Translations under genes and position numbers: made by a program | From: a phage | Assembly (NCBI GenBank): GCA_025289735.1 | Contig: GCA_025289735.1_4764.3 | Reading direction: 5' to 3' (one strand) | DNA length: 17,548 nt | The notes under the pieces: model-generated | Databases searched by the model: none | Told to the model about the DNA's origin: nothing | What the model saw: the letters and a program-made list of their open reading frames with translations, nothing else | Shown: one piece after another, positions 1-13,605 of the stretch | How positions within the stretch are numbered: position 1 is the first letter of the stretch | Layout of the letters: every line of letters starts with the position of its first letter

Positions 1-36
1 ATACTCGGAACTATAACTAATTTTTGAGGTTACTTT

Positions 37-1527
37 ATGGCAGATTTGAAACATGGATCTACTGTAGGCGGATCTCCCATTTGGACGCAAGGAAACTTGA
101 CGATCCAGCCAGCGGGGGATCAGCTTTTCTACAAAGGTCATAAAATCTATACCGCTTTTGATAAACCTTCGGCTGCCGATTTTGATGCTGTTAGTGCATC
201 CGAAGGTGGCACATTTCAAAAGCAAGTTCATTTCGAGGAAGGTTTAAGCGTAGGTAGCGCATCGGCTGGAGAAACCAAAAAGAACGGGATCTTTAAAGGA
301 AATAGTGATGCGGCTAACTTTGATGGTGTAAGTTGGGGTTTCCATTCGTGGAAATCTATTGGTTTTGTTAATGCTCGTGATGATGTTATCATGGCTTATA
401 TTGACACTACCACAGGTGATTTTAAAACTAAAGGGACTATCGAAGGGACAACCATTAAAGACACAGGTCAACGCGTCTATAGCCCTGTTAATAAACCAAC
501 GAATAATGATTTAGATTTGGTGTCTCGTCGCGGTGATACCCTCACAGGAACATATAATTTAAACACTGTCACTGTTAAACTATCGGTTGATTCGAAATTA
601 ATTGCAAGGGAACGTGATTTAATTAATTTTGATGCGACTAAGATCTATTATGGTAACGTTCTTGATACGTTGGTCTTCCGAAGTAAAGATGAGCCTACCA
701 TTTTTGTTAATGGCAGAGAAGGTCGTTTTTATCACACCAACAATAAACCAACTAAAGCCGATGTTGGGCTAGGCAATGTCACCAATGATGCACAGGTTAA
801 ACGTGCTGGTGATATTATGGTAGGTAACTTGCAAGCGCCTAGAATGTTGGCGACAAACGATCCTGCTGGTCCTAATGAATTGGTTCGTTTGAGCTACTTT
901 GAGAGAAAATCAATGGTAGCAAATCCAACCATCATTGGAAACGTTGATTGGAACACTCTTATTAATCGCGGTATCTATCGTGTGGAAAATGCTGGGTCAG
1001 GTACTAATAAACCGTCTGATAGCTATTATAACGGCGTTTTGATGGTATATCGCCCAGAAGATGCGGTCGGTACTCGTCGAATTGTTCAGGTGTATTATCC
1101 TGAATCTATTGACCATCCGATGTGCTGGCGTTCGTGTTCTAATGAATCATGGACTGCATGGAACTATGTAGATCACCGTAAATTGGCTGATATTCGCTAT
1201 GTTAACGTCACTGGCGATACCATGACAGGACCGTTAACTGTTCCGGCTGCAAACGGTGTTAGAACGGCTAGAGGTGCATATAATGGTGATAACTACTATG
1301 CCGGGTTAAATAGTGCTGACGGCACGGCTATGATTCACCGTATCAGCGATATTAAAGCCACTGAAAAATTGGGTATTACACATGATTCGAAAGCTGTTTT
1401 CGTTAAATCGCGTGGAAATACTCAAGCCACAGACCGCTATGAACTTTACCACGAAGGGCATAAACCTACCCCTGCCGAAGTTGGTGCGGTTCCACTTAAT
1501 GCGGTGATTGATTTTGGTACTTTCTAA
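37..1527 (+). CDS. 36: Long tail fiber protein, gp36-like (496 aa)
   Basis: ATG at 37 with GAGGT 7 nt upstream. N-terminus MADLKHGSTVGGSPIWTQGN resembles my recollection of the T4 gp36/gp37 N-terminal family. Repeated fibre-type motifs (VYSPVNKPTNNDLDL, FYHTNNKPTKADVGLGNV, YHEGHKPTPAEVGA). Sits immediately upstream of the gp37-like gene. Much longer than T4 gp36 (about 220 aa). Confidence 0.75.
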   Translation: MADLKHGSTVGGSPIWTQGNLTIQPAGDQLFYKGHKIYTAFDKPSAADFDAVSASEGGTFQKQVHFEEGLSVGSASAGETKKNGIFKGNSDAANFDGVSWGFHSWKSIGFVNARDDVIMAYIDTTTGDFKTKGTIEGTTIKDTGQRVYSPVNKPTNNDLDLVSRRGDTLTGTYNLNTVTVKLSVDSKLIARERDLINFDATKIYYGNVLDTLVFRSKDEPTIFVNGREGRFYHTNNKPTKADVGLGNVTNDAQVKRAGDIMVGNLQAPRMLATNDPAGPNELVRLSYFERKSMVANPTIIGNVDWNTLINRGIYRVENAGSGTNKPSDSYYNGVLMVYRPEDAVGTRRIVQVYYPESIDHPMCWRSCSNESWTAWNYVDHRKLADIRYVNVTGDTMTGPLTVPAANGVRTARGAYNGDNYYAGLNSADGTAMIHRISDIKATEKLGITHDSKAVFVKSRGNTQATDRYELYHEGHKPTPAEVGAVPLNAVIDFGTF

Positions 1528-1531
1528 TTTT

Positions 1532-1558
1532 AGCGGGGATTATCTCCCCGCTTTTCTA
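1532..1558 (+). terminator. Rho-independent terminator or attenuator after the gp36-like gene
   Basis: Hairpin AGCGGGGA-ttatc-TCCCCGCT directly followed by TTTTCT, 5 nt after the stop codon at 1525..1527. Confidence 0.6.
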
Positions 1559-1597
1559 AATAATATTATTCTAATAACCGTTTAAGGATTTTATAAA

Positions 1598-4500
1598 ATG
1601 GCAGATTTAAGCAGAATCCAATTTAAACGCACTAGCACTAAAGGTCGTAAACCTGATGCTAGTACGATGAATCCGGGGGAATTGGCAATCAACCTTGCGG
1701 ATCAATATCTTCTTACTAAAAATGATTCCGGTGCTATTATCAATTTAAGTTGTCCTCCGGTGTATGACCGCGATGTTACAATGGCGGGTAAGGTTAAAGG
1801 AAATAATTATATTTTAAGCAAAACCGCCAACTATCTGGAAGATCAGACAGCGCGAGATCTTAACTACTTTGGTGCTTTCCGTACCAATGGTCTTGATGGT
1901 TTTCTCGAACTAACGCTAAACGTTCCTCATTCTTCCGGTATTCAACATGGTCGAGGATTTACTTTCCAGTATGGACACCTTGGATCGCGTGTAGAAACTT
2001 ATGGTTATAATAAAGAAGGACAAAAAGCATTTAGTTATAAAATGTATCATGAAGGGGATAAACCAACTCCAGGAGAATTGAACGTCTATAGCAAACAAGA
2101 AGTAGATCGGATGTTCCAAAAGACACTTGATTTTGGAATTGAGTCCGGTTGGTTTAAAATCGCTACAGTATATCTACCACAACAATATGGGCGTAGTGCT
2201 AAAATTAGATTGGTTGGTGGTAATGGTTATAATGTAGGACAGACCGGGCAAGCTAATATTATTGAATTGGTTCTGCGTAGCGGGAATGGAAATCCGGTTG
2301 GTGTTGTGTTTAACGCTTATATGACCATCTGGTATATAGACCAGAAGTTTTGTGCTATTCCTACTGGTGGTGACTCTTATGATATATACGGTAGCTATTC
2401 CGGTCATACTGGATTTGTGTTGGCTGAATACCAGACTAGCCCTGACGTTAACCTGACTTTATATGATAACCCACAATTTATAGGAAGTCAATTACCGGAA
2501 GCTGAAACAAAGTTCGATGCTTATACAATCACTTCATTTAGTACTTATCGCAACCACGGGACATTAAATTTTGGTGCTAATTCTCAAGGCCAATATGACA
2601 TTGAGCATTTGAACGAACAACCGACAAATGCTAAAAAGATGTTGCGTCGCTTCCGTAGTTGTGCTCCTGCCACTATCTGGCATGAGACAGTTGATGATAA
2701 CCAGTATCGTCTTGCTACTGGATACGAAGATACAAATCAGGAATTATTGCTGACAGCAACATCCGGGTTACATGTCAAGAAATTAACATTGGATGGCGGT
2801 GTCACTGGAAATTCTGGTATTGATATTCGTCGAGGACCAAACGAAGCAAGCCATTTTAATTTTATGGATTATCGCACTGGACAAGATGTTCGTAATGGCT
2901 GGTTTGGCTTCGGTGATGGTCAGACCAAAGATTTTATTTGGTGGAACGATAACGGTCAAAACTCATTAAATCTTTTAGAAAACGGTGAATTACAGATTTC
3001 TGGTGGTAAAGGCCAGAAAATTGTAATGAATAGCGAAGTTGCATTATCTGAAAATGCTCGTTTGGCTGTTAGAGGTGGTAATTATGGCGTGATATTCCGT
3101 AATGATGGAACGAACTTTCATCTGCTTACTACCGATTTAAAAGATTCTTTTGGAAATTGGAATAATCGTAGACCATTTAGTTATGACTTTGCCGAAGGTG
3201 GATTGGATCTAGGTGGCACAACGACCGCACGTTGTTTGCATCTGGGAATTGATGGTAGTACCCGTATCGAGGATAACTTAGTTTTCAGGGCGGGATCTCG
3301 TCAATCAATGGACTACTTAGAATTTGTTCATTGGGGGGCAAGTAATACCGGACGTAATAACGTTTTAAGTCTTCGTGACTCAAAAGGATTTTTAGCAGAA
3401 TTTGAACGTAAAGGTGATAACACCATTCAAAATACATTCTTCGGAAGATTTAAAGTCAATGGTGGTTCTAACGCTATTACCGTTAATGCTCCTACTGATT
3501 CCGAGTCTGTTTATGTGAAAGGTACTTGTAACGATGTAGATAACTGGTATATAGGTAAAGGTGGTGCTGATAATGCATTAGCCTTTTATAGCTATAAGTC
3601 TAATGCGGCTATTTATCTCACAAATAATGGTGAGGTTTTATTAGCCCCACAAAACACCGCAATTGTTAACGTCAATCGCGACCGTATACACATCAACGGT
3701 ACACAGTGGGTGGCAAATCAGCCACATGGCTGGGGTAATCAGTGGCTGTCCGAAGCGCCTATATTCGTTGATTTTGGTACTGGTATTCCAAATGATACCT
3801 ATATGCCAATCATTAAAGCCCGTAGCCAAATTACTGGCGGTTATGCAACTAAGGCCGATTTTGGTATATATCGTCATGGTACTGATACTTGGGGTGATGC
3901 TGTTATTCGTGTCGGTTCTGCCGAAAGTGGTGATAGTAATCATCCAAACGCAATTTATACTTTCCGGGCAAATGGCGATTTTAAAGCTCCGGCTGGCCTC
4001 CGTGCTGGTGTTAACTTGGGTGTTGGTACTGATCCTGTATTGGGTGGACATTCTATTGCTATCGGTGATAATGACACTGGCTTAGTGTGGGGTGGTGATG
4101 GTCGTATTAACATGTTTGCTAACGGACAGCATATTGCATCATGGGGTACGATGTATCAAGAACACTCAGGACTATGGGGAAGTCATGGTGGTTTGTGGAC
4201 AGAAGTCGATAAAGCGATTATTTCTCATGGTCATCTAGTCCAGGCGAATGACAACTATTCTACATATGTTCGTGACATTTATATCCGTTCGGATATTCGC
4301 GTGAAGAAAGACCTAGTTAAATTTGAAAATGCATCTAAGACACTTTCAAAAATTAACGGTTACAAATATCTTCAAAAGCGCGGGACCAATGAAGACGGTA
4401 GCGAACGTTGGGAAGAAAACGCTGGTTTGATTGCTCAGGAAGTTCAAGCTATTTTGCCGGAATTGGTTGAAGGCGATCCAGATAGCGAAAACCTTCTTCG

Positions 4501-4636
4501 TTTGAACTATAACGGTGTTATTGGTTTAAATACTGCGGCAATCAACGAACACACCGAAGAAATTGCACTTCTTAAAGAAGAAAATAAACTTCTTCGTGAT
4601 CGTCTTGCTGCAATTGAAGCAAAATTATTTGGTTAA
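1598..4636 (+). CDS. 37: Long tail fiber distal subunit, gp37-like (1012 aa), with C-terminal intramolecular chaperone domain
   Basis: ATG at 1598 with AAGGA upstream. N-terminus MADLSRIQFKRTSTKGRKPDASTMNPGELAINLADQYLLTKNDSGAIINL parallels recalled T4 gp37 (MATLKQIQFKR...GELAINL...TKDDSGNIIDL). Length matches T4 gp37 (about 1026 aa). Gly/Asn/Thr-rich fibre composition. C-terminal about 114 aa begin with the S-D-x-R-x-K motif. Confidence 0.9.
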   Translation: MADLSRIQFKRTSTKGRKPDASTMNPGELAINLADQYLLTKNDSGAIINLSCPPVYDRDVTMAGKVKGNNYILSKTANYLEDQTARDLNYFGAFRTNGLDGFLELTLNVPHSSGIQHGRGFTFQYGHLGSRVETYGYNKEGQKAFSYKMYHEGDKPTPGELNVYSKQEVDRMFQKTLDFGIESGWFKIATVYLPQQYGRSAKIRLVGGNGYNVGQTGQANIIELVLRSGNGNPVGVVFNAYMTIWYIDQKFCAIPTGGDSYDIYGSYSGHTGFVLAEYQTSPDVNLTLYDNPQFIGSQLPEAETKFDAYTITSFSTYRNHGTLNFGANSQGQYDIEHLNEQPTNAKKMLRRFRSCAPATIWHETVDDNQYRLATGYEDTNQELLLTATSGLHVKKLTLDGGVTGNSGIDIRRGPNEASHFNFMDYRTGQDVRNGWFGFGDGQTKDFIWWNDNGQNSLNLLENGELQISGGKGQKIVMNSEVALSENARLAVRGGNYGVIFRNDGTNFHLLTTDLKDSFGNWNNRRPFSYDFAEGGLDLGGTTTARCLHLGIDGSTRIEDNLVFRAGSRQSMDYLEFVHWGASNTGRNNVLSLRDSKGFLAEFERKGDNTIQNTFFGRFKVNGGSNAITVNAPTDSESVYVKGTCNDVDNWYIGKGGADNALAFYSYKSNAAIYLTNNGEVLLAPQNTAIVNVNRDRIHINGTQWVANQPHGWGNQWLSEAPIFVDFGTGIPNDTYMPIIKARSQITGGYATKADFGIYRHGTDTWGDAVIRVGSAESGDSNHPNAIYTFRANGDFKAPAGLRAGVNLGVGTDPVLGGHSIAIGDNDTGLVWGGDGRINMFANGQHIASWGTMYQEHSGLWGSHGGLWTEVDKAIISHGHLVQANDNYSTYVRDIYIRSDIRVKKDLVKFENASKTLSKINGYKYLQKRGTNEDGSERWEENAGLIAQEVQAILPELVEGDPDSENLLRLNYNGVIGLNTAAINEHTEEIALLKEENKLLRDRLAAIEAKLFG
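4292..4633 (+). other. Predicted C-terminal intramolecular chaperone domain of gp37 (peptidase S74-like), putative autocleavage after Ser898
   Basis: Sequence ...YIRS|DIRVKKDLVKFENASKTLSKINGYKYL...LLKEENKLLRDRLAAIEAKLFG. The S-D-x-R-x-K start and coiled-coil C-terminal tail match the pattern I recall for endosialidase / T5 pb1-type self-cleaving chaperone domains. Confidence 0.6.
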
Positions 4637-4644
4637 TTTAAATG

Positions 4645-4662
4645 GCGGGGAGAAATCCCCGC
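4645..4662 (+). other. Stable stem-loop (GCGGGGA-GAAA-TCCCCGC) between gp37 and the downstream gene, no U-tract
   Basis: 7-bp GC-rich stem with a GNRA-type GAAA tetraloop 9 nt after the gp37 stop. Followed by TAAGGATCTT (the RBS of the next gene) rather than a T-run, so more likely an RNA stability or processing element than a terminator. Confidence 0.5.
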
Positions 4663-4674
4663 TAAGGATCTTAA

Positions 4675-4971
4675 ATGGGCTATTGGGTAAGTAATGAACA
4701 AGACACTAAAATAGATGCTGTAAAATGGCATGTTTTTGATATTCCTAATGGATATGTTCCCGGTCGTGCTGGTGTTGCCGTTTTGCGGCATACCGCTCGT
4801 GATGGTTGGGGCGATATGCATATTTCCGTTGACGGTGTGGTCGCCGCGCGTCGTCGTGGTGGTGGGGATTGGGGATTTACGGTTAATGCGTTTGTTCCTG
4901 CTGGATGTACTGTCACCTTTGGTCATGGGGGTGTCGGTGGTATTGAATACTTTAAATTTATGGAGTTTTAA
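4675..4971 (+). CDS. Small Gly/Trp-rich protein, paralog A of a tandem triplet (98 aa)
   Basis: ATG with AAGGA 6 nt upstream. Shares MGYWV...FDIPNG...GGGD...G-T-T pattern with the two downstream ORFs. Confidence 0.65.
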   Translation: MGYWVSNEQDTKIDAVKWHVFDIPNGYVPGRAGVAVLRHTARDGWGDMHISVDGVVAARRRGGGDWGFTVNAFVPAGCTVTFGHGGVGGIEYFKFMEF

Positions 4972-4973
4972 TT

Positions 4974-5279
4974 ATGGCTGGTTGGGTTGCTGGAAGAATG
5001 GCTAATGCTATTAGCATTTATGCTAATGGCGGCTGGTTTGGTATCCCTAATGGTTGGGTTACTGATTCATGCGGTATTGTGTCTGTTCATGCCGAAGCCG
5101 TTGGCGGTGGAGGTGACTTGGACGCCGAATTATATGTAAACGGTACTCTAGAATCAGGTCATCACGCTGGTAATGCCGGAAGTTGGGGAGCTAGTTCTTT
5201 AGTTGGTGTTGGTGCTACTGTCAGTTTTAGCATTGGTAAAGGAAGTTTAAACCACTTCCAATTTAGGAGAATGCATTAA
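4974..5279 (+). CDS. Small Gly/Trp-rich protein, paralog B of a tandem triplet (101 aa)
   Basis: ATG 2 nt after the stop of paralog A, GGAG 8 nt upstream. Motifs GWFGIPNGW and GGGGD shared with paralogs A and C. Confidence 0.65.
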   Translation: MAGWVAGRMANAISIYANGGWFGIPNGWVTDSCGIVSVHAEAVGGGGDLDAELYVNGTLESGHHAGNAGSWGASSLVGVGATVSFSIGKGSLNHFQFRRMH

Positions 5280-5578
5280 TGGGATATTGGGTGTATGGCG
5301 TTTTAGACAATAAAGCCGGTAAAGCGAATCAGGGATGGTTTGATATTCCTAACGGTTGGACAGCCGACGCTTTCGGTACGGTTTCATTTGGTGCTCATTC
5401 TTCTGGTGGTGGTGGTGACTCAGAATTGCTTTTGCATGGCTTTTGTGTGTCTGGAAGTCATAAGGGTCATGATTGGGGACAGATCCATTCTTGTATTGTG
5501 CCGCAGGGAGTAACGATCACGGTAACTACAAACAGGGGCATTTCCCATCTTCGTTATAGACGCCAGAGCAACCGTTAA
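5279..5578 (+). CDS. Small Gly/Trp-rich protein, paralog C of a tandem triplet (99 aa)
   Basis: Start overlaps the stop of paralog B (TAATG). AGGAGA 8 nt upstream. Motifs MGYWV, GWFDIPNGW, GGGGD. Confidence 0.65.
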   Translation: MGYWVYGVLDNKAGKANQGWFDIPNGWTADAFGTVSFGAHSSGGGGDSELLLHGFCVSGSHKGHDWGQIHSCIVPQGVTITVTTNRGISHLRYRRQSNR

Positions 5579-5629
5579 AAAGAATTAAGGAAACCTCCCA
5601 CGGAAGGGAACTACTAAGGAGAAACGGCT

Positions 5630-5869
5630 ATGGTCTATAATATCGTCATTGGTGCTTTGTCTAATTTCGGAATGAAACTATTGTCAAAGTTAATTAGTGA
5701 AAAGATGCTCACTAAAATCTTCTTCTATTGCGCTCGTCGTCTTGCGGCTTATACCAATACGCCAATTGATGATCGTTTTGTGGAAGAACTTTATAAGGAG
5801 TTTAATAAAGATCAGTTAGAAGATAGCAACGAGCAAAATAAAAATAGTGATAGTCAAGTACCTAAATAA
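5630..5869 (+). CDS. Hypothetical protein (79 aa) between the fibre module and the holin
   Basis: ATG with AAGGAG 8 nt upstream. Hydrophobic/amphipathic N-terminus and acidic, low-complexity C-terminus. No family recognised. Confidence 0.5.
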   Translation: MVYNIVIGALSNFGMKLLSKLISEKMLTKIFFYCARRLAAYTNTPIDDRFVEELYKEFNKDQLEDSNEQNKNSDSQVPK

Positions 5870-5902
5870 GAGTACACTGTCATAGTTATCTTAGGGCATT
5901 AT

Positions 5903-6559
5903 ATGCAAGTTTCTGAAAAAGGGAAAGACTTTGCTATCTCAAATGTCCTGCGCGCTATTTTCACAACTAAAAGCACGGAGTTGCTCGTACTTCGTGTTTT
6001 TGCTGCCGTCGTGTTGTCCATATTAGCATTTGTCGTTTATAGTAAAAACGAGTTATTTGCCTTGTATAAAGAGACTCGTTATGAGACTTATGCTCACGTT
6101 CTCCAGGTAGAGAAAGACCGCAATTTTGATAATGCAGCACAGGAGCAGTTACAGATAGTTCATGTGTCGGCTGATGCCGATTTTTCTGCTGTTTTTAGTT
6201 TTCGTCCGAAAAACCTAAACTATTTTGTTGATTTGGTGGCATATGAAGGAAAGCTACCGCATACAATCGATGAAAAAAATTTAGGTGGATTCCCTATCAA
6301 TAAAACGAGTGAAGAATATCGTAGGCATCTTTTAGGTAAATCATATTTTACCGATAAAGATTTCCAGTATATTCCATCAAGAGAAAAGAAATTAGAGAGT
6401 ATCGATATAGGGTTTATGTATTCTTGCCCTATATTCAATCTCGATAATGTCTATTCTGGTAGTATCGCCATTGCGTGGAAGAATAAACCGGATATTGACA
6501 TTGAGAATTTAGATACTCTTTGCAATCAATCTGCCAGAATCCTCGGAAGGATTAGATAA
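5903..6559 (+). CDS. t: Holin, T4 t-type (218 aa)
   Basis: Same length as T4 holin T. Single TMD (LVLRVFAAVVLSILAFVVY) after a short N-terminal region, then a large C-terminal domain. Several blocks match my recollection of T4 T: EQLQIVH, ADFSAVxSFRPKNLNYFVD, AYEGKLP, MYSCPxFNLDNxYxG, ARILGR. Confidence 0.9.
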   Translation: MQVSEKGKDFAISNVLRAIFTTKSTELLVLRVFAAVVLSILAFVVYSKNELFALYKETRYETYAHVLQVEKDRNFDNAAQEQLQIVHVSADADFSAVFSFRPKNLNYFVDLVAYEGKLPHTIDEKNLGGFPINKTSEEYRRHLLGKSYFTDKDFQYIPSREKKLESIDIGFMYSCPIFNLDNVYSGSIAIAWKNKPDIDIENLDTLCNQSARILGRIR

Positions 6560-6564
6560 CTTAA

Positions 6565-6597
6565 AGGGGAAGCCTTTCGGCCTCCCCTTCTTTTTAT
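6565..6597 (+). terminator. Rho-independent terminator after holin t
   Basis: 10-bp stem AGGGGAAGCC / GGCCTCCCCT (one mismatch), loop TTTC, followed by TCTTTTTA. Confidence 0.7.
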
Positions 6598-6842
6598 TGG
6601 AGCATAGAAGCCCCTGAATCACATTTTGACGCTGTATGATGAAAACAGGTAGCGTACCAGTCATCGGCTTGTTTGTCTTCGTCAGAAAACGCGTAATTGC
6701 GTTGTATGCCGTTTTCTACTTTGACCAGTGCAATAGCTGTTTCTGGAAGATCAATCAATCGGACAAAATCACCGTCTTCCCACTCCACACGGGCAATATC
6801 ATAGCCCATCTCAAAGTATACAATCGCTTGTTCTAATTTCAT
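6594..6842 (-). CDS. Hypothetical early protein (82 aa)
   Basis: ATG overlaps the upstream stop (ATGA). Last gene of the minus-strand array, ending at the t terminator. Confidence 0.5.
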   Translation of the reverse strand: MKLEQAIVYFEMGYDIARVEWEDGDFVRLIDLPETAIALVKVENGIQRNYAFSDEDKQADDWYATCFHHTASKCDSGASMLQ

Positions 6843-8838: not shown

Positions 8839-9639
8839 TTAACCCTTCTTATATTCGCAAACATATTGAGTACCATAATCATAGCTAATGCGACCTTTCT
8901 CGATGACTTCAAAGCGGATTTCATCGTTTTCCCCTACCCACATTTTGTACTCGTTGAAGTATCCTGCTACATCCGGTTTGCTCATACCAACAACCATATT
9001 TTTATATTGTTTGCTGCGTGTCAGATTTGATTTAAACACTTCGCGCTCATCAACATATACGAAAGAAGACAATTCACCTTCGGTCATGGTCATTTTCAGC
9101 TTGCCGCCCTTGTTGCCATAAGTAGAGTTGCCATACAATGGATCTTTGCGGCTGTCTGTTTCAATACCATCAATGATTTTCCATGTAAATTTTGCAATGC
9201 ACTGGTAAGTGATAGATCCAGAGATTTTCTCTTCTTTCTTCTGTTCTTCCACCACTTTTTCTTCCTGTTTCGGTTGTTCTTCTTCAACCTTCACAGAAGT
9301 CTCTGAATCGCTTTCTGACGCGGTTTCTTCTTTAGGTAATACATTCATCAAGTTTTGGATTTGAGCGTGATATACAGCCTCCAGTGGCTGAATTTTCCCG
9401 ATATTGATCATTGTATCACGAACAGTTTTATTCCAGTTGCGTTGCTCTTGTTTCAGAGACGGATCAATCTTAACAGCCTTAACATATACTTCATGAAGTT
9501 TAGAATCAAGTGCGGAGATAGACTCATTAGCACAAATAAACTTCTCTGATTTGGTAGTAGCTTTAGCGCAATCAAAGGACGCAGCATTAGCACCGAAAGC
9601 AGTAGCAGAAAGAACGATAGCAGCGATAATGTTTTTCAT
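8839..9639 (-). CDS. Secreted protein with N-terminal LprI/DUF1311-like domain, charged linker and C-terminal beta-rich domain (266 aa)
   Basis: ATG with GAGGAA 8 nt upstream, directly downstream of promoter cassette P3. Signal peptide MKNIIAAIVLSATAFGANA|AS. Then FDCAKATTKSEKFICANESISALDSKLHEVY...QEQRNWNKTVRD, fitting the DUF1311 pattern as I recall it (C..A.T..E..IC...LD..L..Y...Q..W...RD). E/K-rich linker. C-terminal domain with two Cys and an SGSITY motif. Confidence 0.7.
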   Translation of the reverse strand: MKNIIAAIVLSATAFGANAASFDCAKATTKSEKFICANESISALDSKLHEVYVKAVKIDPSLKQEQRNWNKTVRDTMINIGKIQPLEAVYHAQIQNLMNVLPKEETASESDSETSVKVEEEQPKQEEKVVEEQKKEEKISGSITYQCIAKFTWKIIDGIETDSRKDPLYGNSTYGNKGGKLKMTMTEGELSSFVYVDEREVFKSNLTRSKQYKNMVVGMSKPDVAGYFNEYKMWVGENDEIRFEVIEKGRISYDYGTQYVCEYKKG

Positions 9640-9673
9640 AATATATTCCTCAGTGTTTTGTCTTGATGGTAGT

Positions 9674-9702
9674 ATGTTACTACTCCCTTAATCCGGTGTC
9701 AA
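9674..9702 (-). promoter_or_regulatory. Sigma70-like early promoter P3 (-35 TTGACA, 17-nt spacer, -10 TAACAT)
   Basis: Minus-strand sequence aaaaagtagTTGACA-N17-TAACAT, about 35 nt upstream of the ATG at 9639. A-rich upstream element. Shares a conserved leader with the other cassettes. Confidence 0.6.
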
Positions 9703-9709
9703 CTACTTT

Positions 9710-9865
9710 TTAAATTTCTTCTACAGTAAAGTCTTCAATGTTGTTGTGCTCGGAGAACGTTGCCAGACCAGCATTCCATGCATCATCCTCAGAGAAGAAT
9801 ACACCGTAACGTTCATATCCCTTAGCGCCTTCAAATTTAACCATTAATTTGTGAGTATGTTTCAT
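9710..9865 (-). CDS. Hypothetical early protein (51 aa), acidic
   Basis: ATG at 9863..9865 with AAGGAG 7 nt upstream, downstream of P4. The track ORF start at 9898 lies inside the promoter. Confidence 0.5.
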   Translation of the reverse strand: MKHTHKLMVKFEGAKGYERYGVFFSEDDAWNAGLATFSEHNNIEDFTVEEI

Positions 9866-9896
9866 TTTGATTCTCCTTAGTTGTCTTGATGAGTTC

Positions 9897-9925
9897 ATTA
9901 TAGGGGATCACCGATCCCCTGTCAA
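9897..9925 (-). promoter_or_regulatory. Sigma70-like early promoter P4 (-35 TTGACA, palindromic 17-nt spacer, -10 TATAAT)
   Basis: Minus-strand GTTGACA-GGGGATCGGTGATCCCC-TATAAT. The spacer is a perfect inverted repeat containing two GATC sites. Confidence 0.6.
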
Positions 9926-9933
9926 CAACTATT

Positions 9934-10146
9934 TTAATGTTTACCCACGCGTAAATTAATGCGCATTTTCTGCATAGCCATGATCTGGTTTACTGCTTCT
10001 TCTTTACGTTCTTGCGTGATAACGTGACCAGATTCCGCAAACTCTCCCGCAACTTCTTCTACAATCTCGCGAACTTGAGAACGTCCAAAGATGCGGTTTC
10101 CTTCGTAGCTCATAAATTCAGTCACTACTTGCTCAATAGATTTCAT
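9934..10146 (-). CDS. Hypothetical early protein (70 aa)
   Basis: ATG with AAGGAG 7 nt upstream, downstream of P1. Confidence 0.55.
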   Translation of the reverse strand: MKSIEQVVTEFMSYEGNRIFGRSQVREIVEEVAGEFAESGHVITQERKEEAVNQIMAMQKMRINLRVGKH

Positions 10147-10178
10147 GTGATTCTCCTTCTTTCGTTTGGTATGGGAGT

Positions 10179-10207
10179 ATATTACTACTCCCGTTTCTTT
10201 ACGTCAA
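10179..10207 (-). promoter_or_regulatory. Sigma70-like early promoter P1 (-35 TTGACG, 17-nt spacer, -10 TAATAT)
   Basis: Minus-strand ctaaaaaccaGTTGACG-N17-TAATAT followed by the conserved leader ATACTCCCATACCAAAC and the RBS. Confidence 0.6.
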
Positions 10208-10214
10208 CTGGTTT

Positions 10215-10457
10215 TTAGAAATTTTTCGCTTCTTCTTCGGTAATCATAACCGCGCATTCGTGCATAACTTTGAAAACCGGATCAATCATGTCGAATGCTT
10301 CGCGGGACAGTTTACGAGAAGCGATTTTGATTGCTTCAACGTCTTCGACTACAGGAACAAAAACAGTTTTCAGTTCATCGAGAACGGCAGCTTCTTTTTC
10401 ATTCAGGAAGATCCCAGCGTCGTACAGTGCAACTTCGATAACATTAACTTTAACCAT
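10215..10457 (-). CDS. Hypothetical early protein (80 aa), acidic
   Basis: ATG at 10455..10457 with GGAGGAAA upstream, downstream of P2. The track N-terminal extension is a translation of the promoter. Confidence 0.55.
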   Translation of the reverse strand: MVKVNVIEVALYDAGIFLNEKEAAVLDELKTVFVPVVEDVEAIKIASRKLSREAFDMIDPVFKVMHECAVMITEEEAKNF

Positions 10458-10491
10458 TTTTATTTCCTCCAGTTCGTTTCGGTATGGGAGT

Positions 10492-10520
10492 ATAATACTA
10501 CCGATGACCTTTGGCGTCAA
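10492..10520 (-). promoter_or_regulatory. Sigma70-like early promoter P2 (-35 TTGACG, 17-nt spacer, -10 TATTAT)
   Basis: Minus-strand acaaaaaactaGTTGACG-N17-TATTAT followed by the conserved leader ATACTCCCATACCGAAAC. Overlaps the 3' end of the upstream gene. Confidence 0.6.
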
Positions 10521-10722
10521 CTAGTTTTTTGTTATTTTCGTGAAAATTTTTCGTCGCCTCATGTGCTTTTCGCTGGGCTTCTTGTTGTGCTTGCTGGCGT
10601 GCTGCCTCTTGCGATGCCATAACAGACGCATTTGCAGCAGTTACAGCCGCGACCATCGCTGCGGTATTAGCATTTACCGTACATGCACTAGCCAGCAAAG
10701 CAATTGCAATCATTTTCTTCAT
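10498..10722 (-). CDS. Small secreted protein or lipoprotein (74 aa) with Gln/Ala-rich helical mature region
   Basis: ATG with AAGGGG 6 nt upstream, overlapping the upstream stop (ATGA). N-terminus MKKMIAIALLASAC has a lipobox-like LASAC; an alternative signal peptidase I site lies at VNA|NT. Mature part QEAARQQAQQEAQRKAHEATK. Confidence 0.6.
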   Translation of the reverse strand: MKKMIAIALLASACTVNANTAAMVAAVTAANASVMASQEAARQQAQQEAQRKAHEATKNFHENNKKLVDAKGHR

Positions 10723-10889
10723 AGTTTCCCCTTTATGTTATCTTCGACCTTCATCCATTCCGCGTATTCTTGTGCGGCTACTTTCGGATTTAAGCCGTCT
10801 TCGTACATTGCATCAAGTAATTCTTTGTCGGTGGGCTTATACCCTAGATAAGCCTCCACCTGATTTTTCCAAATTTTATACCAGTTCAT
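10719..10889 (-). CDS. Hypothetical early protein (56 aa)
   Basis: Internal ATG (MNWYKIWKNQ...) with GGTGAT 4 nt upstream. The longer track ORF would overlap the upstream gene by 65 nt. Confidence 0.45.
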   Translation of the reverse strand: MNWYKIWKNQVEAYLGYKPTDKELLDAMYEDGLNPKVAAQEYAEWMKVEDNIKGKL

Positions 10890-10893
10890 ATTA

Positions 10894-11166
10894 TCACCAG
10901 TCAAGAGCGCGTGTCTCTGCGTCTTCCCATGCTTGGTCCATAACAGCCTTGAAAACATATTCTAAAGTATCATCTTTAGAGAATCCGAAGATTTTAGACG
11001 GAATATCTTCAATTGCTACTCCCGCAACTTCTGCATTACGCGCTTGGCAGTAATGCAACTCTAAGTTATCGAGATAGCGACCGCCTAATTTCTCCATATC
11101 ATCCCAGCATTTCCAGTAACCTACTTTATTTGCAATTGCTAACACTTTGCTGTTTTCGTTGCTCAT
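10894..11166 (-). CDS. Hypothetical early protein (90 aa)
   Basis: ATG at 11164..11166 with AAGGAGA 7 nt upstream, first gene downstream of P5. Confidence 0.55.
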   Translation of the reverse strand: MSNENSKVLAIANKVGYWKCWDDMEKLGGRYLDNLELHYCQARNAEVAGVAIEDIPSKIFGFSKDDTLEYVFKAVMDQAWEDAETRALDW

Positions 11167-11197
11167 CTTTGATTCTCCTTTTGTTTGGTATGTGTGT

Positions 11198-11226
11198 ATT
11201 ATGCGAGGCTGGATTCGTGAAGTCAA
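11198..11226 (-). promoter_or_regulatory. Sigma70-like early promoter P5 (-35 TTGACT, 17-nt spacer, -10 CATAAT)
   Basis: Minus-strand attttaaaaagttGTTGACT-N17-CATAAT followed by leader ATACACACATACCAAAC and the RBS. Lies immediately downstream of the terminator at 11236..11267. Confidence 0.6.
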
Positions 11227-11235
11227 CAACTTTTT

Positions 11236-11267
11236 AAAATAAAAAAGCCGACCACAAGGATCGGCTT
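11236..11267 (-). terminator. Rho-independent terminator (minus strand) after the 131-aa gene
   Basis: Minus-strand hairpin AGCCGA ... TCGGCT (6 bp, 9-nt loop) followed by TTTTTTATTTT. Confidence 0.6.
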
Positions 11268-11276
11268 AATAATCAG

Positions 11277-11672
11277 TTACTTACTAAATTTCTTTTTGGC
11301 TTCGTCTACTGCATGAGATGCCAGTACCGCCGCCGCATGTGCACTTTTATCTGTGTTGCAGAGAACACCCAGATAAACATCACGCCAAAGTTTAATCATC
11401 TCGTAGATCATATCAATATCATTTTCTTGTTTGTTGGCGATGCTATTCGTCGTTATCTGGTAAGGTAACGGCTTAATCTGTACTGGTTCCGCCATCGGGC
11501 TAATAGGTTTCGGATCAGTCATAATAGGTGCTGTTGTGGGTGATGTTTTCCATACGTCATTATTCCACGGTTTAATCGTTGTATCGTAAAGTTTATAAGG
11601 ATTTTTGTCTGGGTCAACCATCCATGCATGATGAGTACCCAAACCATTTGAAGTGATGCGTCGTTCAGTCAT
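11277..11672 (-). CDS. Hypothetical early protein (131 aa)
   Basis: ATG with GGAGGGAAAGT upstream. Start overlaps the 3' end of the upstream gene by 8 nt. Confidence 0.55.
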   Translation of the reverse strand: MTERRITSNGLGTHHAWMVDPDKNPYKLYDTTIKPWNNDVWKTSPTTAPIMTDPKPISPMAEPVQIKPLPYQITTNSIANKQENDIDMIYEMIKLWRDVYLGVLCNTDKSAHAAAVLASHAVDEAKKKFSK

Positions 11673-13242: not shown

Positions 13243-13605
13243 TCATACACGCTTACAAATCACATTCTTTACTTTATCAGATTTATCAGCCCAATCCAAT
13301 AGCCATTTTAACGGAAGGATTGACACAATAAACGGGGCAGCAATCAAAGCAAACATGATACACCTGATAATCAGGAAAACGCAAGTGACAAAACTAGCGA
13401 TAGTGATCCCGACAAAACAAAATACCATAGAAAACAGAGTAATGATATAGAAAGGCCAGAATACCCACTCCCGCATCTTAACGCCTTTGTATTCTCTGAA
13501 TTGCTTAAAATCAACAAACAACTCTCGGATAGACGAGTACAGGACCGAAAAATCATCTTTCATTGCTCTGAATGAGCAATCTTCTATTTTAGAATGACCT
13601 AGCAT
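13243..13605 (-). CDS. Small membrane protein (120 aa, two predicted TM helices)
   Basis: ATG with AAGGCGG upstream. Hydrophobic segments WVFWPFYIITLFSMVFCFVGITIASFV and CVFLIIRCIMFALIAAPFIVSILPL. Confidence 0.55.
   Translation of the reverse strand: MLGHSKIEDCSFRAMKDDFSVLYSSIRELFVDFKQFREYKGVKMREWVFWPFYIITLFSMVFCFVGITIASFVTCVFLIIRCIMFALIAAPFIVSILPLKWLLDWADKSDKVKNVICKRV

What the first reader, a model, noticed from the sequence alone, without database searches (positions are those of the whole stretch)
10498..10722. Small early secreted protein or lipoprotein, candidate receptor-blocking exclusion factor
A 74-aa product with a signal peptide, a lipobox-like LASAC and a short Gln/Ala-rich helical mature part. 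Small early phage lipoproteins such as T5 Llp or Cor-type proteins block the phage receptor against superinfection. It is encoded together with the secreted LprI-like protein in the same early array.
Basis: inference. Interest (0 to 1): 0.55.

Follow-up and report, generated by a model that had tools for sequence, protein, structure and literature searches.

The report
Small exported accessory peptide, Krischvirus phages
This is a real but ordinary small accessory gene of RB49-like (T4-type) E. coli phages that most likely makes a short helical peptide exported to the periplasm; comparison with relatives argues against a lipoprotein, and its function is still unknown.

Summary
The ORF exists on the minus strand (10722->10498). 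It has a conserved Shine-Dalgarno site and an ATGA overlap with the upstream gene. It is under purifying selection: pN/pS is 0.21 in frame and about 1-2 in the other frames. The window is a Krischvirus (RB49-like) genome. The gene lies in the early hyperplastic region between gene 52 and holin t, among sigma-70 promoter/stem-loop (PeSL) cassettes.

It is an ORFan. Only Krischvirus-type sequences turned up in 5.8 billion proteins and in a full HMMER scan, and there were no Pfam, PHROG, NCBIfam, PADLOC or PDB hits. About half of Krischvirus genomes carry it. RB49, Phi1 and JSE lack it, and four genomes have an internal deletion.

The N-terminus looks like a Sec signal peptide. The LASAC "lipobox" does not hold up:
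- Position -3 is Ala, and the Cys is at residue 14.
- Three alleles have Val at -1.
- Four alleles of a divergent clade have Phe instead of Cys.
- V-N-A|N-T, a signal peptidase I site, is invariant in all 28 alleles.

The invariant part is an Ala/Val/Met helix (residues 19-37). The Gln-rich tail tolerates indels and frameshifts. The last 8 residues of the 74-aa form are read-through into the next promoter.

Presence of the gene does not track tail-fibre type. Receptor blocking is unsupported, and an envelope-acting accessory role is only inferred.

The parts
10498..10722 (-). ORF74 coding sequence (74 aa plus TAG) in this window's allele
   Evidence: In-frame pN/pS is 0.21. Annotated as a CDS in relatives.
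10727..10734 (-). Shine-Dalgarno site AAAGGGGA, 5 nt before the ATG. The ATG overlaps the TGA of the upstream gene (ATGA, 10722-10719).
   Evidence: The GGGGAAA core is kept in 18 of 20 loci, including the divergent clade whose upstream gene differs.
10669..10722 (-). Codons 1-18: predicted Sec signal peptide MKKMIAIALLASACTVNA, with inferred signal peptidase I cleavage after VNA
   Evidence: Rule-based features. VNANT is invariant in 28/28 alleles, while residues 11-15 vary. Cleavage itself was not tested.
10681..10692 (-). Codons 11-14, ASAC: the lipobox-like motif of the finding. It is not conserved.
   Evidence: Alleles: 21 ASAC, 3 ASVC, 3 VSTF, 1 VSSF. It fails the classic [LVI][ASTVI][GAS]C pattern.
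10603..10677 (-). Codons 16-40: the most constrained part. It includes the Ala/Val/Met-rich apolar helix NTAAMVAAVTAANASVMAS with small-xxx-small spacing.
   Evidence: pN/pS 0.09, with 4 synonymous changes and 1 non-synonymous change. Variability table. Helical wheel.
10525..10602 (-). Codons 41-66: polar Gln/Glu/Arg/Lys-rich helix that tolerates indels
   Evidence: In-frame 4-aa and 22-aa deletions occur in P0002 and P0004. pN/pS 0.23.
10498..10524 (-). Codons 67-74 plus stop: read-through tail LVDAKGHR, encoded by the -35 hexamer and spacer of the next promoter. It is absent in the 66-aa alleles.
   Evidence: Residue 67 varies among L, A, E and V.
10525..10551 (-). Frameshift-prone homopolymer runs (A5T4 at 10551-10543, A6 at 10530-10525) that generate three C-terminal forms among relatives
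   Evidence: Alignment and allele table.
10492..10520 (-). Sigma-70-like early promoter (TTGACG-17-TATTAT) of the next gene, overlapping the 3' end of ORF74. It is a PeSL-type cassette with only a weak stem-loop.
   Evidence: annotated as a promoter in GEC-3S; fold z-score -1.6; repeat family D1.
10719..10889 (-). Upstream 56-aa gene (PHROG 8655), translationally coupled to ORF74. It is fused to the ORF74 C-terminus in PHB13-type deletion genomes.
10894..11166 (-). First gene (90 aa, PHROG 7287) of the three-gene early unit that ends with ORF74
11198..11226 (-). Sigma-70-like promoter (TTGACT-17-CATAAT) that most likely drives the 90-aa, 56-aa and ORF74 unit
   Evidence: Annotated as a promoter at the same place in GEC-3S.
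11245..11267 (-). Intrinsic terminator upstream of that promoter, insulating the unit from gene 52 transcription
10209..10737 (-). The 529-bp module (ORF74, promoter, 80-aa gene at 10457-10215) that is absent from RB49, Phi1, JSE and about 20 other genomes
   Evidence: UPWr_E1 has a chimeric promoter at the junction.

Best explanation
ORF74 is a non-essential accessory early gene found only in Krischvirus (RB49-like T4-type) phages. It is the last gene of a three-gene unit transcribed by host sigma-70 RNA polymerase from a PeSL-type promoter. It lies in the hyperplastic region between gene 52 and holin t, where promoter repeats drive gain and loss of small ORFan modules.

Its product is most likely exported by the Sec pathway and cut by signal peptidase I after V16-N17-A18. 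That would release a peptide of about 48 residues (56 in this window's read-through allele) into the periplasm. The peptide has an invariant apolar Ala/Val/Met helix with small-xxx-small spacing (residues 19-37), which I take to be the working part and a helix-packing surface. A polar Gln/Glu/Lys-rich helix follows and behaves as a tolerant, solubilising tail. The peptide is not a conserved lipoprotein.

It most plausibly binds an envelope component of the infected cell, giving a conditional advantage such as superinfection exclusion or envelope conditioning at a step after adsorption.

Shown: the gene is real, selected, lineage-restricted and dispensable; the lipobox cysteine is not conserved; the VNA|NT site is invariant.

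Inferred: export, the cleavage site, periplasmic location, and all of the function.
For: Gene reality and selection: (pN/pS 0.21 in frame, and 0.09 for codons 16-40).

Krischvirus identity and early-region context. PeSL biology comes from PMC2839356.

ORFan status.

Accessory nature: 28 of 56 Krischvirus records carry the region, 24 lack the module and 4 have an internal deletion.

Signal-peptide features resemble the neighbouring secreted LprI-like protein.

Allele survey: VNANT is found in 28/28 alleles, and the changes in the first 40 residues cluster at positions 4 and 11-15. That pattern is expected if residues 1-18 are a cleaved signal peptide and residue 19 onward is the mature protein.

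Helix prediction. C-terminal indel and frameshift tolerance.
Against: - No signal-peptide predictor (SignalP, LipoP) could be run, and no experiment exists. Export and cleavage rest on rules and on conservation patterns.
- At 18 residues the signal peptide is short.
- All 17 GenBank-type loci examined keep the Cys, so lipidation in that clade cannot be excluded.
- The functional assignment has no direct support: no homolog of known function, no informative structural match, and no co-varying partner gene.
- Natural loss in half the genus, including well-growing laboratory phages, shows that any benefit is conditional.
Confidence: 0.5

Rival explanations
1. ORF74 is an outer-membrane lipoprotein: Lgt and LspA process it at LASA|C, and Thr at +2 would send it to the outer membrane. 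It would then block the phage's own receptor from the periplasmic side, like T5 Llp or Cor, preventing superinfection and inactivation of progeny on cell debris.
For: The window allele matches permissive lipobox patterns: the G+LPPv2 pattern and the PROSITE core pattern. 24 of 28 alleles keep Cys14. The size, about 60 mature residues, is similar to Llp and Cor (from memory). The gene is expressed early.
Against: - Position -3 is Ala, not Leu/Val/Ile, and the Cys at residue 14 fails the positional rule.
- Three alleles have Val at -1, a position that needs Gly, Ala or Ser.
- Four distinct alleles have Phe instead of Cys, yet the rest of the protein is nearly unchanged and under purifying selection.
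- No similarity to any PHROG or Pfam family, which would include Llp and Cor families if they are in those libraries.
- The gene is not adjacent to the receptor-binding gene, and its presence is independent of tail-fibre class.
- RB49, reported to use OmpA (bioRxiv 10.64898/2026.04.02.716166), lacks the gene.
Confidence: 0.06
2. The N-terminal hydrophobic segment is not cleaved. It acts as a signal anchor or a releasable SAR-like segment, making ORF74 a small bitopic inner-membrane protein with a periplasmic helix. It could modulate a membrane complex, for example as a lysis-timing or antiholin-like factor acting on holin T, or as an Imm-like block to DNA entry.
For: W115's annotators called it a 'putative membrane protein'. 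Residues 4-36 form one long stretch of mostly weakly hydrophobic, Ala-rich residues, reminiscent of SAR domains (profile; the comparison with T4 RI is from memory). The holin t gene lies in the same genomic neighbourhood.
Against: - The strongly apolar core is only about 11 residues long.
- The best 19-residue window has an unfavourable membrane-insertion sum of +3.9 kcal/mol on the Hessa scale, and contains Asn17 and Asn19.
- The invariant V-x-A|N motif directly after the apolar core is what a cleaved signal peptide needs, not what an anchor needs.
- ORF74 is 3.9 kb and more than 12 genes away from t.
Confidence: 0.15
3. ORF74 is a functionless passenger: a chance or decaying ORF carried along by PeSL-mediated shuffling, with no role for its product.
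For: It is lost in half of the genus. The C-terminus is scrambled by frameshifts and read-through into a promoter. In-frame deletions are tolerated. It has no homologs outside the genus.
Against: In-frame pN/pS is 0.21, and 0.09 for codons 16-40, against about 1-2 out of frame. The start codon and Shine-Dalgarno site are conserved across clades with different upstream genes. None of the 28 alleles has a premature stop within the first 45 codons.
Confidence: 0.05

Closest known systems
PeSL-flanked ORFan cassettes of the hyperplastic regions of RB49/Phi1 (Arbiol et al. 2010, PMC2839356)
   Same: Same phage genus and same kind of region. It is a small early ORFan flanked by strong sigma-70-like promoters with stem-loops. 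It shows presence/absence polymorphism, with breakpoints at or in the promoter repeats, including a chimeric promoter in UPWr_E1.
   Different: ORF74 has no promoter of its own directly upstream; it is the third gene of a small unit. The stem-loop of the cassette at its 3' end is weak (z-score -1.6). RB49 and Phi1, the phages studied in that paper, lack this gene.
T4 Spackle (Sp, gp61.3), a small periplasmic superinfection-exclusion protein
   Same: A small early T4-type phage protein with an N-terminal cleavable signal peptide, acting in the periplasm. This is a functional analogy only, from my own knowledge.
   Different: No sequence similarity to any PHROG family. Different genomic location. 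ORF74's mature part is about half the size and is predicted to be a single helix. No evidence for inhibition of gp5 lysozyme.
T5 Llp and Cor (T1/phi80/N15), small outer-membrane lipoproteins that block FhuA
   Same: Small size, early expression or expression from the phage genome, N-terminal export signal, and a Cys close to the end of the hydrophobic segment in most alleles.
   Different: The lipobox is non-canonical and not conserved. No homology. Not adjacent to, and not co-varying with, the receptor-binding protein gene.
E. coli Braun lipoprotein Lpp
   Same: Similar precursor length (74 vs 78 aa), a helical Ala/Gln-rich mature part, and C-[ST]-x-N-A at the start of the putative lipoprotein form (from memory).
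   Different: No detectable alignment by BLASTP. The Cys is not conserved. The C-terminus, which is essential for Lpp cross-linking, is frameshift-variable here.

Membership tests
Bacterial lipoproteins (signal peptidase II substrates, lipobox) | Invariant Cys at +1, the residue that is lipidated | tested here: not met
   4 of 28 distinct alleles have Phe at this position (VSSF, VSTF), while residues 16-34 are identical.
Bacterial lipoproteins (signal peptidase II substrates, lipobox) | Small residue (Gly, Ala or Ser) at -1 | tested here: not met
   3 of 28 alleles have Val at -1 (ASVC). The window allele has Ala.
Bacterial lipoproteins (signal peptidase II substrates, lipobox) | Leu/Val/Ile at -3 (classic [LVI][ASTVI][GAS]C), and Cys between residues 15 and 35 (PROSITE PS51257 rule, as I recall it) | tested here: not met
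   Position -3 is Ala and the Cys is at residue 14. Only the permissive core patterns match.
Bacterial lipoproteins (signal peptidase II substrates, lipobox) | Actual diacylglyceryl modification and globomycin-sensitive cleavage | not testable with these tools
   Needs palmitate labelling and globomycin treatment. No LipoP or SignalP was available.
Sec signal peptide cleaved by signal peptidase I | Positively charged n-region followed by an apolar h-region of about 7-15 residues | tested here: met
   MKK followed by MIAIALLASAC. The Kyte-Doolittle 9-residue maximum is 2.6 (3.1 in the divergent clade), comparable to the neighbouring secreted LprI-like protein.
Sec signal peptide cleaved by signal peptidase I | Small uncharged residues at -3 and -1 after the h-region | tested here: met
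   V16-N17-A18|N19-T20 is invariant in 28/28 alleles, while residues 11-15 vary.
Sec signal peptide cleaved by signal peptidase I | Demonstrated export and cleavage | not testable with these tools
T5 Llp / Cor receptor-blocking exclusion lipoproteins | Sequence or profile similarity to the family | tested here: not met
   No PHROG, Pfam or NCBIfam family at E <= 0.01. The full HMMER scan of 1.84 billion representatives found only the family itself and one spurious repeat protein.
T5 Llp / Cor receptor-blocking exclusion lipoproteins | Genetic linkage and co-variation with the receptor-binding protein gene | tested here: not met
   The gene is 5.9 kb from the gp37 stop, across holin t and more than 12 genes. 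Presence vs tail-fibre class gives chi-square p = 0.38.
T5 Llp / Cor receptor-blocking exclusion lipoproteins | Reduced adsorption or infection when the protein is expressed in the host | not testable with these tools
   Needs adsorption and efficiency-of-plating assays.
T4 Sp / Imm superinfection-exclusion proteins | Sequence similarity and syntenic position (sp between 61 and 41; imm next to 43) | tested here: not met
   No PHROG hit. ORF74 lies between gene 52 and t. The RB49 annotation shows no gene named imm or sp at the syntenic positions; this rests on annotation only.
PeSL-associated hyperplastic-region ORFan modules (Arbiol 2010) | Small ORFan bounded by sigma-70-like early promoter plus stem-loop repeats | tested here: inconclusive
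   A downstream promoter cassette is present and repeated, but its stem is weak. The upstream boundary of the RB49-type deletion lies just before the Shine-Dalgarno site, not in a promoter.
PeSL-associated hyperplastic-region ORFan modules (Arbiol 2010) | Insertion/deletion polymorphism among close relatives, with recombinant promoter junctions | tested here: met
   28 records carry the region and 28 do not. UPWr_E1 has a chimeric promoter at the junction.

The most novel reading that the evidence does not exclude
ORF74 could be the founding member of a new class of exported 'small-xxx-small' helical peptides. After signal-peptide removal it would pack against a transmembrane or periplasmic helix of a host or phage envelope machine, such as a DNA-entry route, Tol-Pal/OmpA-linked structures, or a membrane-embedded defence sensor. 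It would then act as the exclusion or anti-defence factor of a T4-type genus in which no imm or sp gene is annotated at the usual positions.
Probability: 0.15. Interest if true: 0.5.

Novelty: new member of a known kind. Interest (0 to 1): 0.2.

Why it matters
As it stands, little. This is one of dozens of uncharacterised small early ORFans in the plastic regions of T4-type phages, and it is already annotated as a hypothetical protein in public genomes.

The useful result is negative and specific: natural allelic variation argues against the attractive lipoprotein/receptor-blocker reading. That saves effort on globomycin and adsorption experiments designed around it.

If the exported peptide does have an envelope target, natural ORF74-plus, ORF74-minus and internally deleted Krischvirus isolates, plus Cys-less alleles, form a ready-made genetic series for finding it. 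These phages are widely used in therapy cocktails and in the FL, MIZ and BASEL-type collections.

Tried and rejected
Searches that gave no informative hit:
- PHROGs, Pfam, NCBIfam and PADLOC gave nothing significant for ORF74. The weak NCBIfam hits (E 0.01-0.5) are signal-peptide or low-complexity noise.
- The word-indexed search of 5.8 billion proteins and the full HMMER profile scan of 1.84 billion representatives found only Krischvirus-type copies. The one extra hit, P0005, is a 651-aa repeat protein and is spurious.
- An IMG/VR scan by protein patterns and by a degenerate DNA pattern found nothing.
- A PDB sequence-profile search found nothing below E = 0.6.
- BLASTP against E. coli Lpp (sequence from memory) and against the neighbouring LprI-like protein gave no alignment. 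This rejects an Lpp mimic and an origin by duplication of the neighbour's 5' end.
- Rfam on 9600-11400 found no RNA family.

Structure:
- The AlphaFold2 monomer is a single long helix. I did not run fold searches because a lone helix gives meaningless matches.

Ideas rejected:
- A continuous Ala stripe or coiled-coil periodicity over the whole mature part is not supported (permutation p = 0.75 at period 3.6). Only residues 19-37 have an Ala face opposite a Val/Met face.
- Co-variation with tail-fibre type was absent.

Discarded result:
- My first pN/pS control on the downstream 80-aa gene was run out of register, so I discarded it.

Full report
**What is there**

The ORF lies on the minus strand, with ATG at 10722-10720 and stop TAG at 10500-10498, and encodes 74 aa. 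The product is MKKMIAIALLASACTVNANTAAMVAAVTAANASVMASQEAARQQAQQEAQRKAHEATKNFHENNKKLVDAKGHR. An AAAGGGGA Shine-Dalgarno sequence ends 5 nt before the ATG. The ATG overlaps the TGA of the upstream 56-aa gene (ATGA), a typical translational-coupling arrangement. No Rfam family matches the region.

**Genomic context**

- The window is 92-97% identical to Krischvirus genomes, which are RB49-like T4-type coliphages such as GEC-3S, W115, kaaroe and the MIZ and FL series.
- Its layout is: long tail fibre genes on the plus strand (37-4636), holin t (5903-6559), then a minus-strand early region running from rIIA (17504-15486) and rIIB through gene 52 (13250-11871) down to 6594.
- ORF74 is the third gene of a small unit. 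The order is an intrinsic terminator (11267-11245), a sigma-70-like promoter TTGACT-17-CATAAT (11226-11198), a 90-aa gene, a 56-aa gene and ORF74.
- Its 3' end overlaps the next promoter, TTGACG-17-TATTAT (10520-10492), which drives an 80-aa gene (10457-10215).
- No T4 late-promoter motif occurs in the window. Together with the sigma-70-type promoters, this makes 'early' reasonable.
- The secreted LprI-like protein (9639-8839; Pfam LprI E = 8e-5) is on the same strand. It is 859 bp away, with three genes and three promoters in between, so it is a neighbour rather than an operon partner.

**Is it a real gene?**

Yes. Against the most divergent relative (metagenomic contig L007, 85% amino-acid identity), pN/pS is 0.21 in the annotated frame, against 0.98 and 1.96 in the other two frames. 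Codons 16-40 show four synonymous changes and one non-synonymous change, giving 0.09. The start codon and the GGGGAAA core of the ribosome-binding site are kept even in that clade, where the upstream gene is different.

**Distribution**

The family is an ORFan of this genus.
- The indexed search of 5.8 billion proteins returned four clusters, all of this type.
- A full HMMER profile scan of 1.84 billion representatives returned only the family plus one spurious repeat protein.
- IMG/VR scans, the PDB, Pfam, PHROGs, NCBIfam and PADLOC gave nothing.

Within the genus the gene is accessory. Of 56 Krischvirus records, 28 carry the whole region. Twenty-four lack a 529-bp module (window 10737-10209: ORF74, promoter and the 80-aa gene); these include the type phage RB49, Phi1 and JSE. 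Four (PHB13, E26, 011D4, phiS) have a 169-bp internal deletion that fuses the upstream gene to the ORF74 C-terminus.

The promoter regions are repeated, and UPWr_E1 carries a chimeric promoter at the deletion junction. This is the 'PeSL' (promoter-early/stem-loop) modular shuffling described for RB49 and Phi1 by Arbiol et al. 2010 (PMC2839356). The stem-loop in the cassette at ORF74's 3' end is weak (z-score -1.6), while the next one is clear (z-score -3.0).

**Signal peptide or lipoprotein?**

The N-terminus has a KK n-region and an apolar core of about 11 residues. It resembles the signal peptide of the neighbouring secreted protein. The window allele matches only permissive lipobox patterns: position -3 is Ala, and the Cys sits at residue 14.

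The decisive evidence is natural variation across 28 distinct alleles, gathered from 20 loci and the protein clusters:
- 21 alleles have ASAC.
- 3 alleles have ASVC, with Val at -1, which a lipobox should not tolerate.
- 4 alleles, from a divergent clade found on several contigs, have VSSF or VSTF and no cysteine at all.
- V16-N17-A18-N19-T20 is identical in all 28 alleles.
- All variation within the first 20 residues falls at positions 4, 11, 13, 14 and 15.

This is the signature of a cleaved Sec signal peptide whose sequence drifts while its cleavage site (VNA|NT, signal peptidase I) and the mature N-terminus are held. It is not the signature of a lipoprotein, whose +1 Cys must be invariant. 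I could not run SignalP or LipoP, so export and cleavage remain inferences, and lipidation in the Cys-bearing clade is not formally excluded.

**Anatomy of the mature part**

- Residues 19-37 (NTAAMVAAVTAANASVMAS) are almost invariant. They form an apolar helix of low hydrophobicity, with an all-Ala/Ser face (A21, A22, A25, A26, A29, A32, S33, A36) opposite a Val/Met face. This is small-xxx-small spacing. It is not hydrophobic enough to be a membrane span.
- Residues 38-66 are a polar Gln/Glu/Arg/Lys helix that tolerates in-frame deletions of 4 and 22 residues.
- The extreme C-terminus is unconstrained. Slippage in the A5T4 and A6 runs (10551-10543, 10530-10525) gives three forms:
  - 66 aa ending NNKN or NNKK, which is also the form in the divergent clade and so is probably ancestral;
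  - 66 aa ending NFTKITKN;
  - the 74-aa form of this window.
- In the 74-aa form, the last eight residues (LVDAKGHR) are simply the translated -35 box and spacer of the next promoter.
- AlphaFold2 predicts one continuous helix with mean pLDDT 79, which adds little.

**Function**

Nothing identifies a function directly. I tested the receptor-blocker idea where I could.
- There is no homology to any known exclusion protein family.
- The gene is not linked to the receptor-binding gene. It lies 5.9 kb from gp37, beyond holin t.
- Its presence is independent of tail-fibre class. Among unique phages the present/absent counts are 20/16, 4/2 and 3/6 for the three classes (chi-square p = 0.38).
- RB49, reported to use OmpA (bioRxiv 10.64898/2026.04.02.716166), lacks the gene.

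My best reading is that a small exported helical peptide uses its invariant Ala/Val helix to pack against an envelope protein of the infected cell. This would give a conditional benefit, with post-adsorption superinfection exclusion or envelope conditioning as the most likely category. That preference rests on what early exported phage proteins usually do. It also fits the RB49 annotation, which shows no gene named imm or sp at the T4-syntenic positions (annotation only).

I give the structural part (exported, signal peptidase I-processed, not a conserved lipoprotein) a probability of about 0.7, and the exclusion-type function about 0.25. The three rivals are rated separately: an uncleaved membrane anchor or antiholin-like protein, a true Llp-like lipoprotein, and a functionless passenger.

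**Comparison with known systems and novelty**

The closest known category is the PeSL-associated hyperplastic-region ORFan of RB49-type phages. Functionally the nearest analogy is T4 Spackle (small, early, periplasmic), but there is no homology. ORF74 fails the defining features of lipoproteins and of Llp/Cor-type blockers that could be tested here. It is already annotated as 'hypothetical protein' (and as 'putative membrane protein' in W115) in public records.

I therefore rate it as a new, uncharacterised member of a known kind, and of low interest. The main value of this work is that natural alleles already refute the lipoprotein reading.

Noticed in passing
window 6594-6842 (-): The 82-aa early ORF next to holin t matches Pfam PF11195, the Tad2-like (Thoeris anti-defence 2) domain, above the gathering cut-off (27.9 vs 25 bits, E = 3e-6; also flagged in L007). 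It is a possible anti-Thoeris sponge in a Krischvirus.
   Followed up: partly
window 8839-9639 (-): A 266-aa protein has a clear signal peptide (MKNIIAAIVLSATAFGANA|AS) and an N-terminal LprI / DUF1311-type domain (Pfam E = 8e-5; PHROG 14799). Unlike ORF74 it is present in RB49 as well (RB49p262), so it belongs to the genus core.
   Followed up: partly
window 1598-5900 (+): The distal long tail fibre gene (1012 aa) and the four small ORFs between it and holin t are mosaic. No phage record covers 80% or more of window 1-5900. Most Krischviruses match only 41% of it, and the best match (76% coverage, 90% identity) is phage G37-3, which otherwise barely matches the ORF74 locus. This suggests a recent exchange of the receptor-binding module.
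   Followed up: no
window 10161-10225 and 10473-10538 (-); also 9660-9683 and 11184-11207: These are repeated early-promoter cassettes (repeat family D1). The copy at 10158-10216 has a clear 7-bp stem, GGGAGTA/TACTCCC, over the -10 box (z-score -3.0). They are PeSL-type elements and recombination substrates.
   Followed up: partly
L002 1039-1257 (phage PHB13); also E26, 011D4, phiS: A 169-bp deletion creates a 72-aa fusion of the upstream 56-aa protein with the last 20 residues of ORF74. These are natural ORF74 knock-outs that keep the downstream promoter.
   Followed up: yes
L013 (OZ035808.1, 'Krischvirus RB49') vs L005 (NC_005066 RB49): Two records labelled RB49 differ at this locus. OZ035808 carries a 66-aa ORF74 allele, while the reference RB49 genome lacks the whole module.
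   Followed up: no
L023 (RB49 9000-36000): RB49's annotation shows no imm next to gene 43 and no sp (61.3) between genes 61 and 41. Only small hypothetical ORFs and dc1/dc2 are there. I did not check by sequence whether the genus has non-orthologous exclusion genes.
   Followed up: no
window 13243-13605 (-): A 120-aa strongly hydrophobic protein (PHROG 16033) lies immediately upstream of gene 52 and overlaps it. It is probably an inner-membrane protein of unknown function.
   Followed up: no
(tblastn of ORF74 against phages): tblastn with the low-complexity filter missed many true 66-aa alleles, for example GEC-3S. The '21 records' count from that search therefore understates the gene's distribution. 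DNA search gave 28 records.
   Followed up: yes
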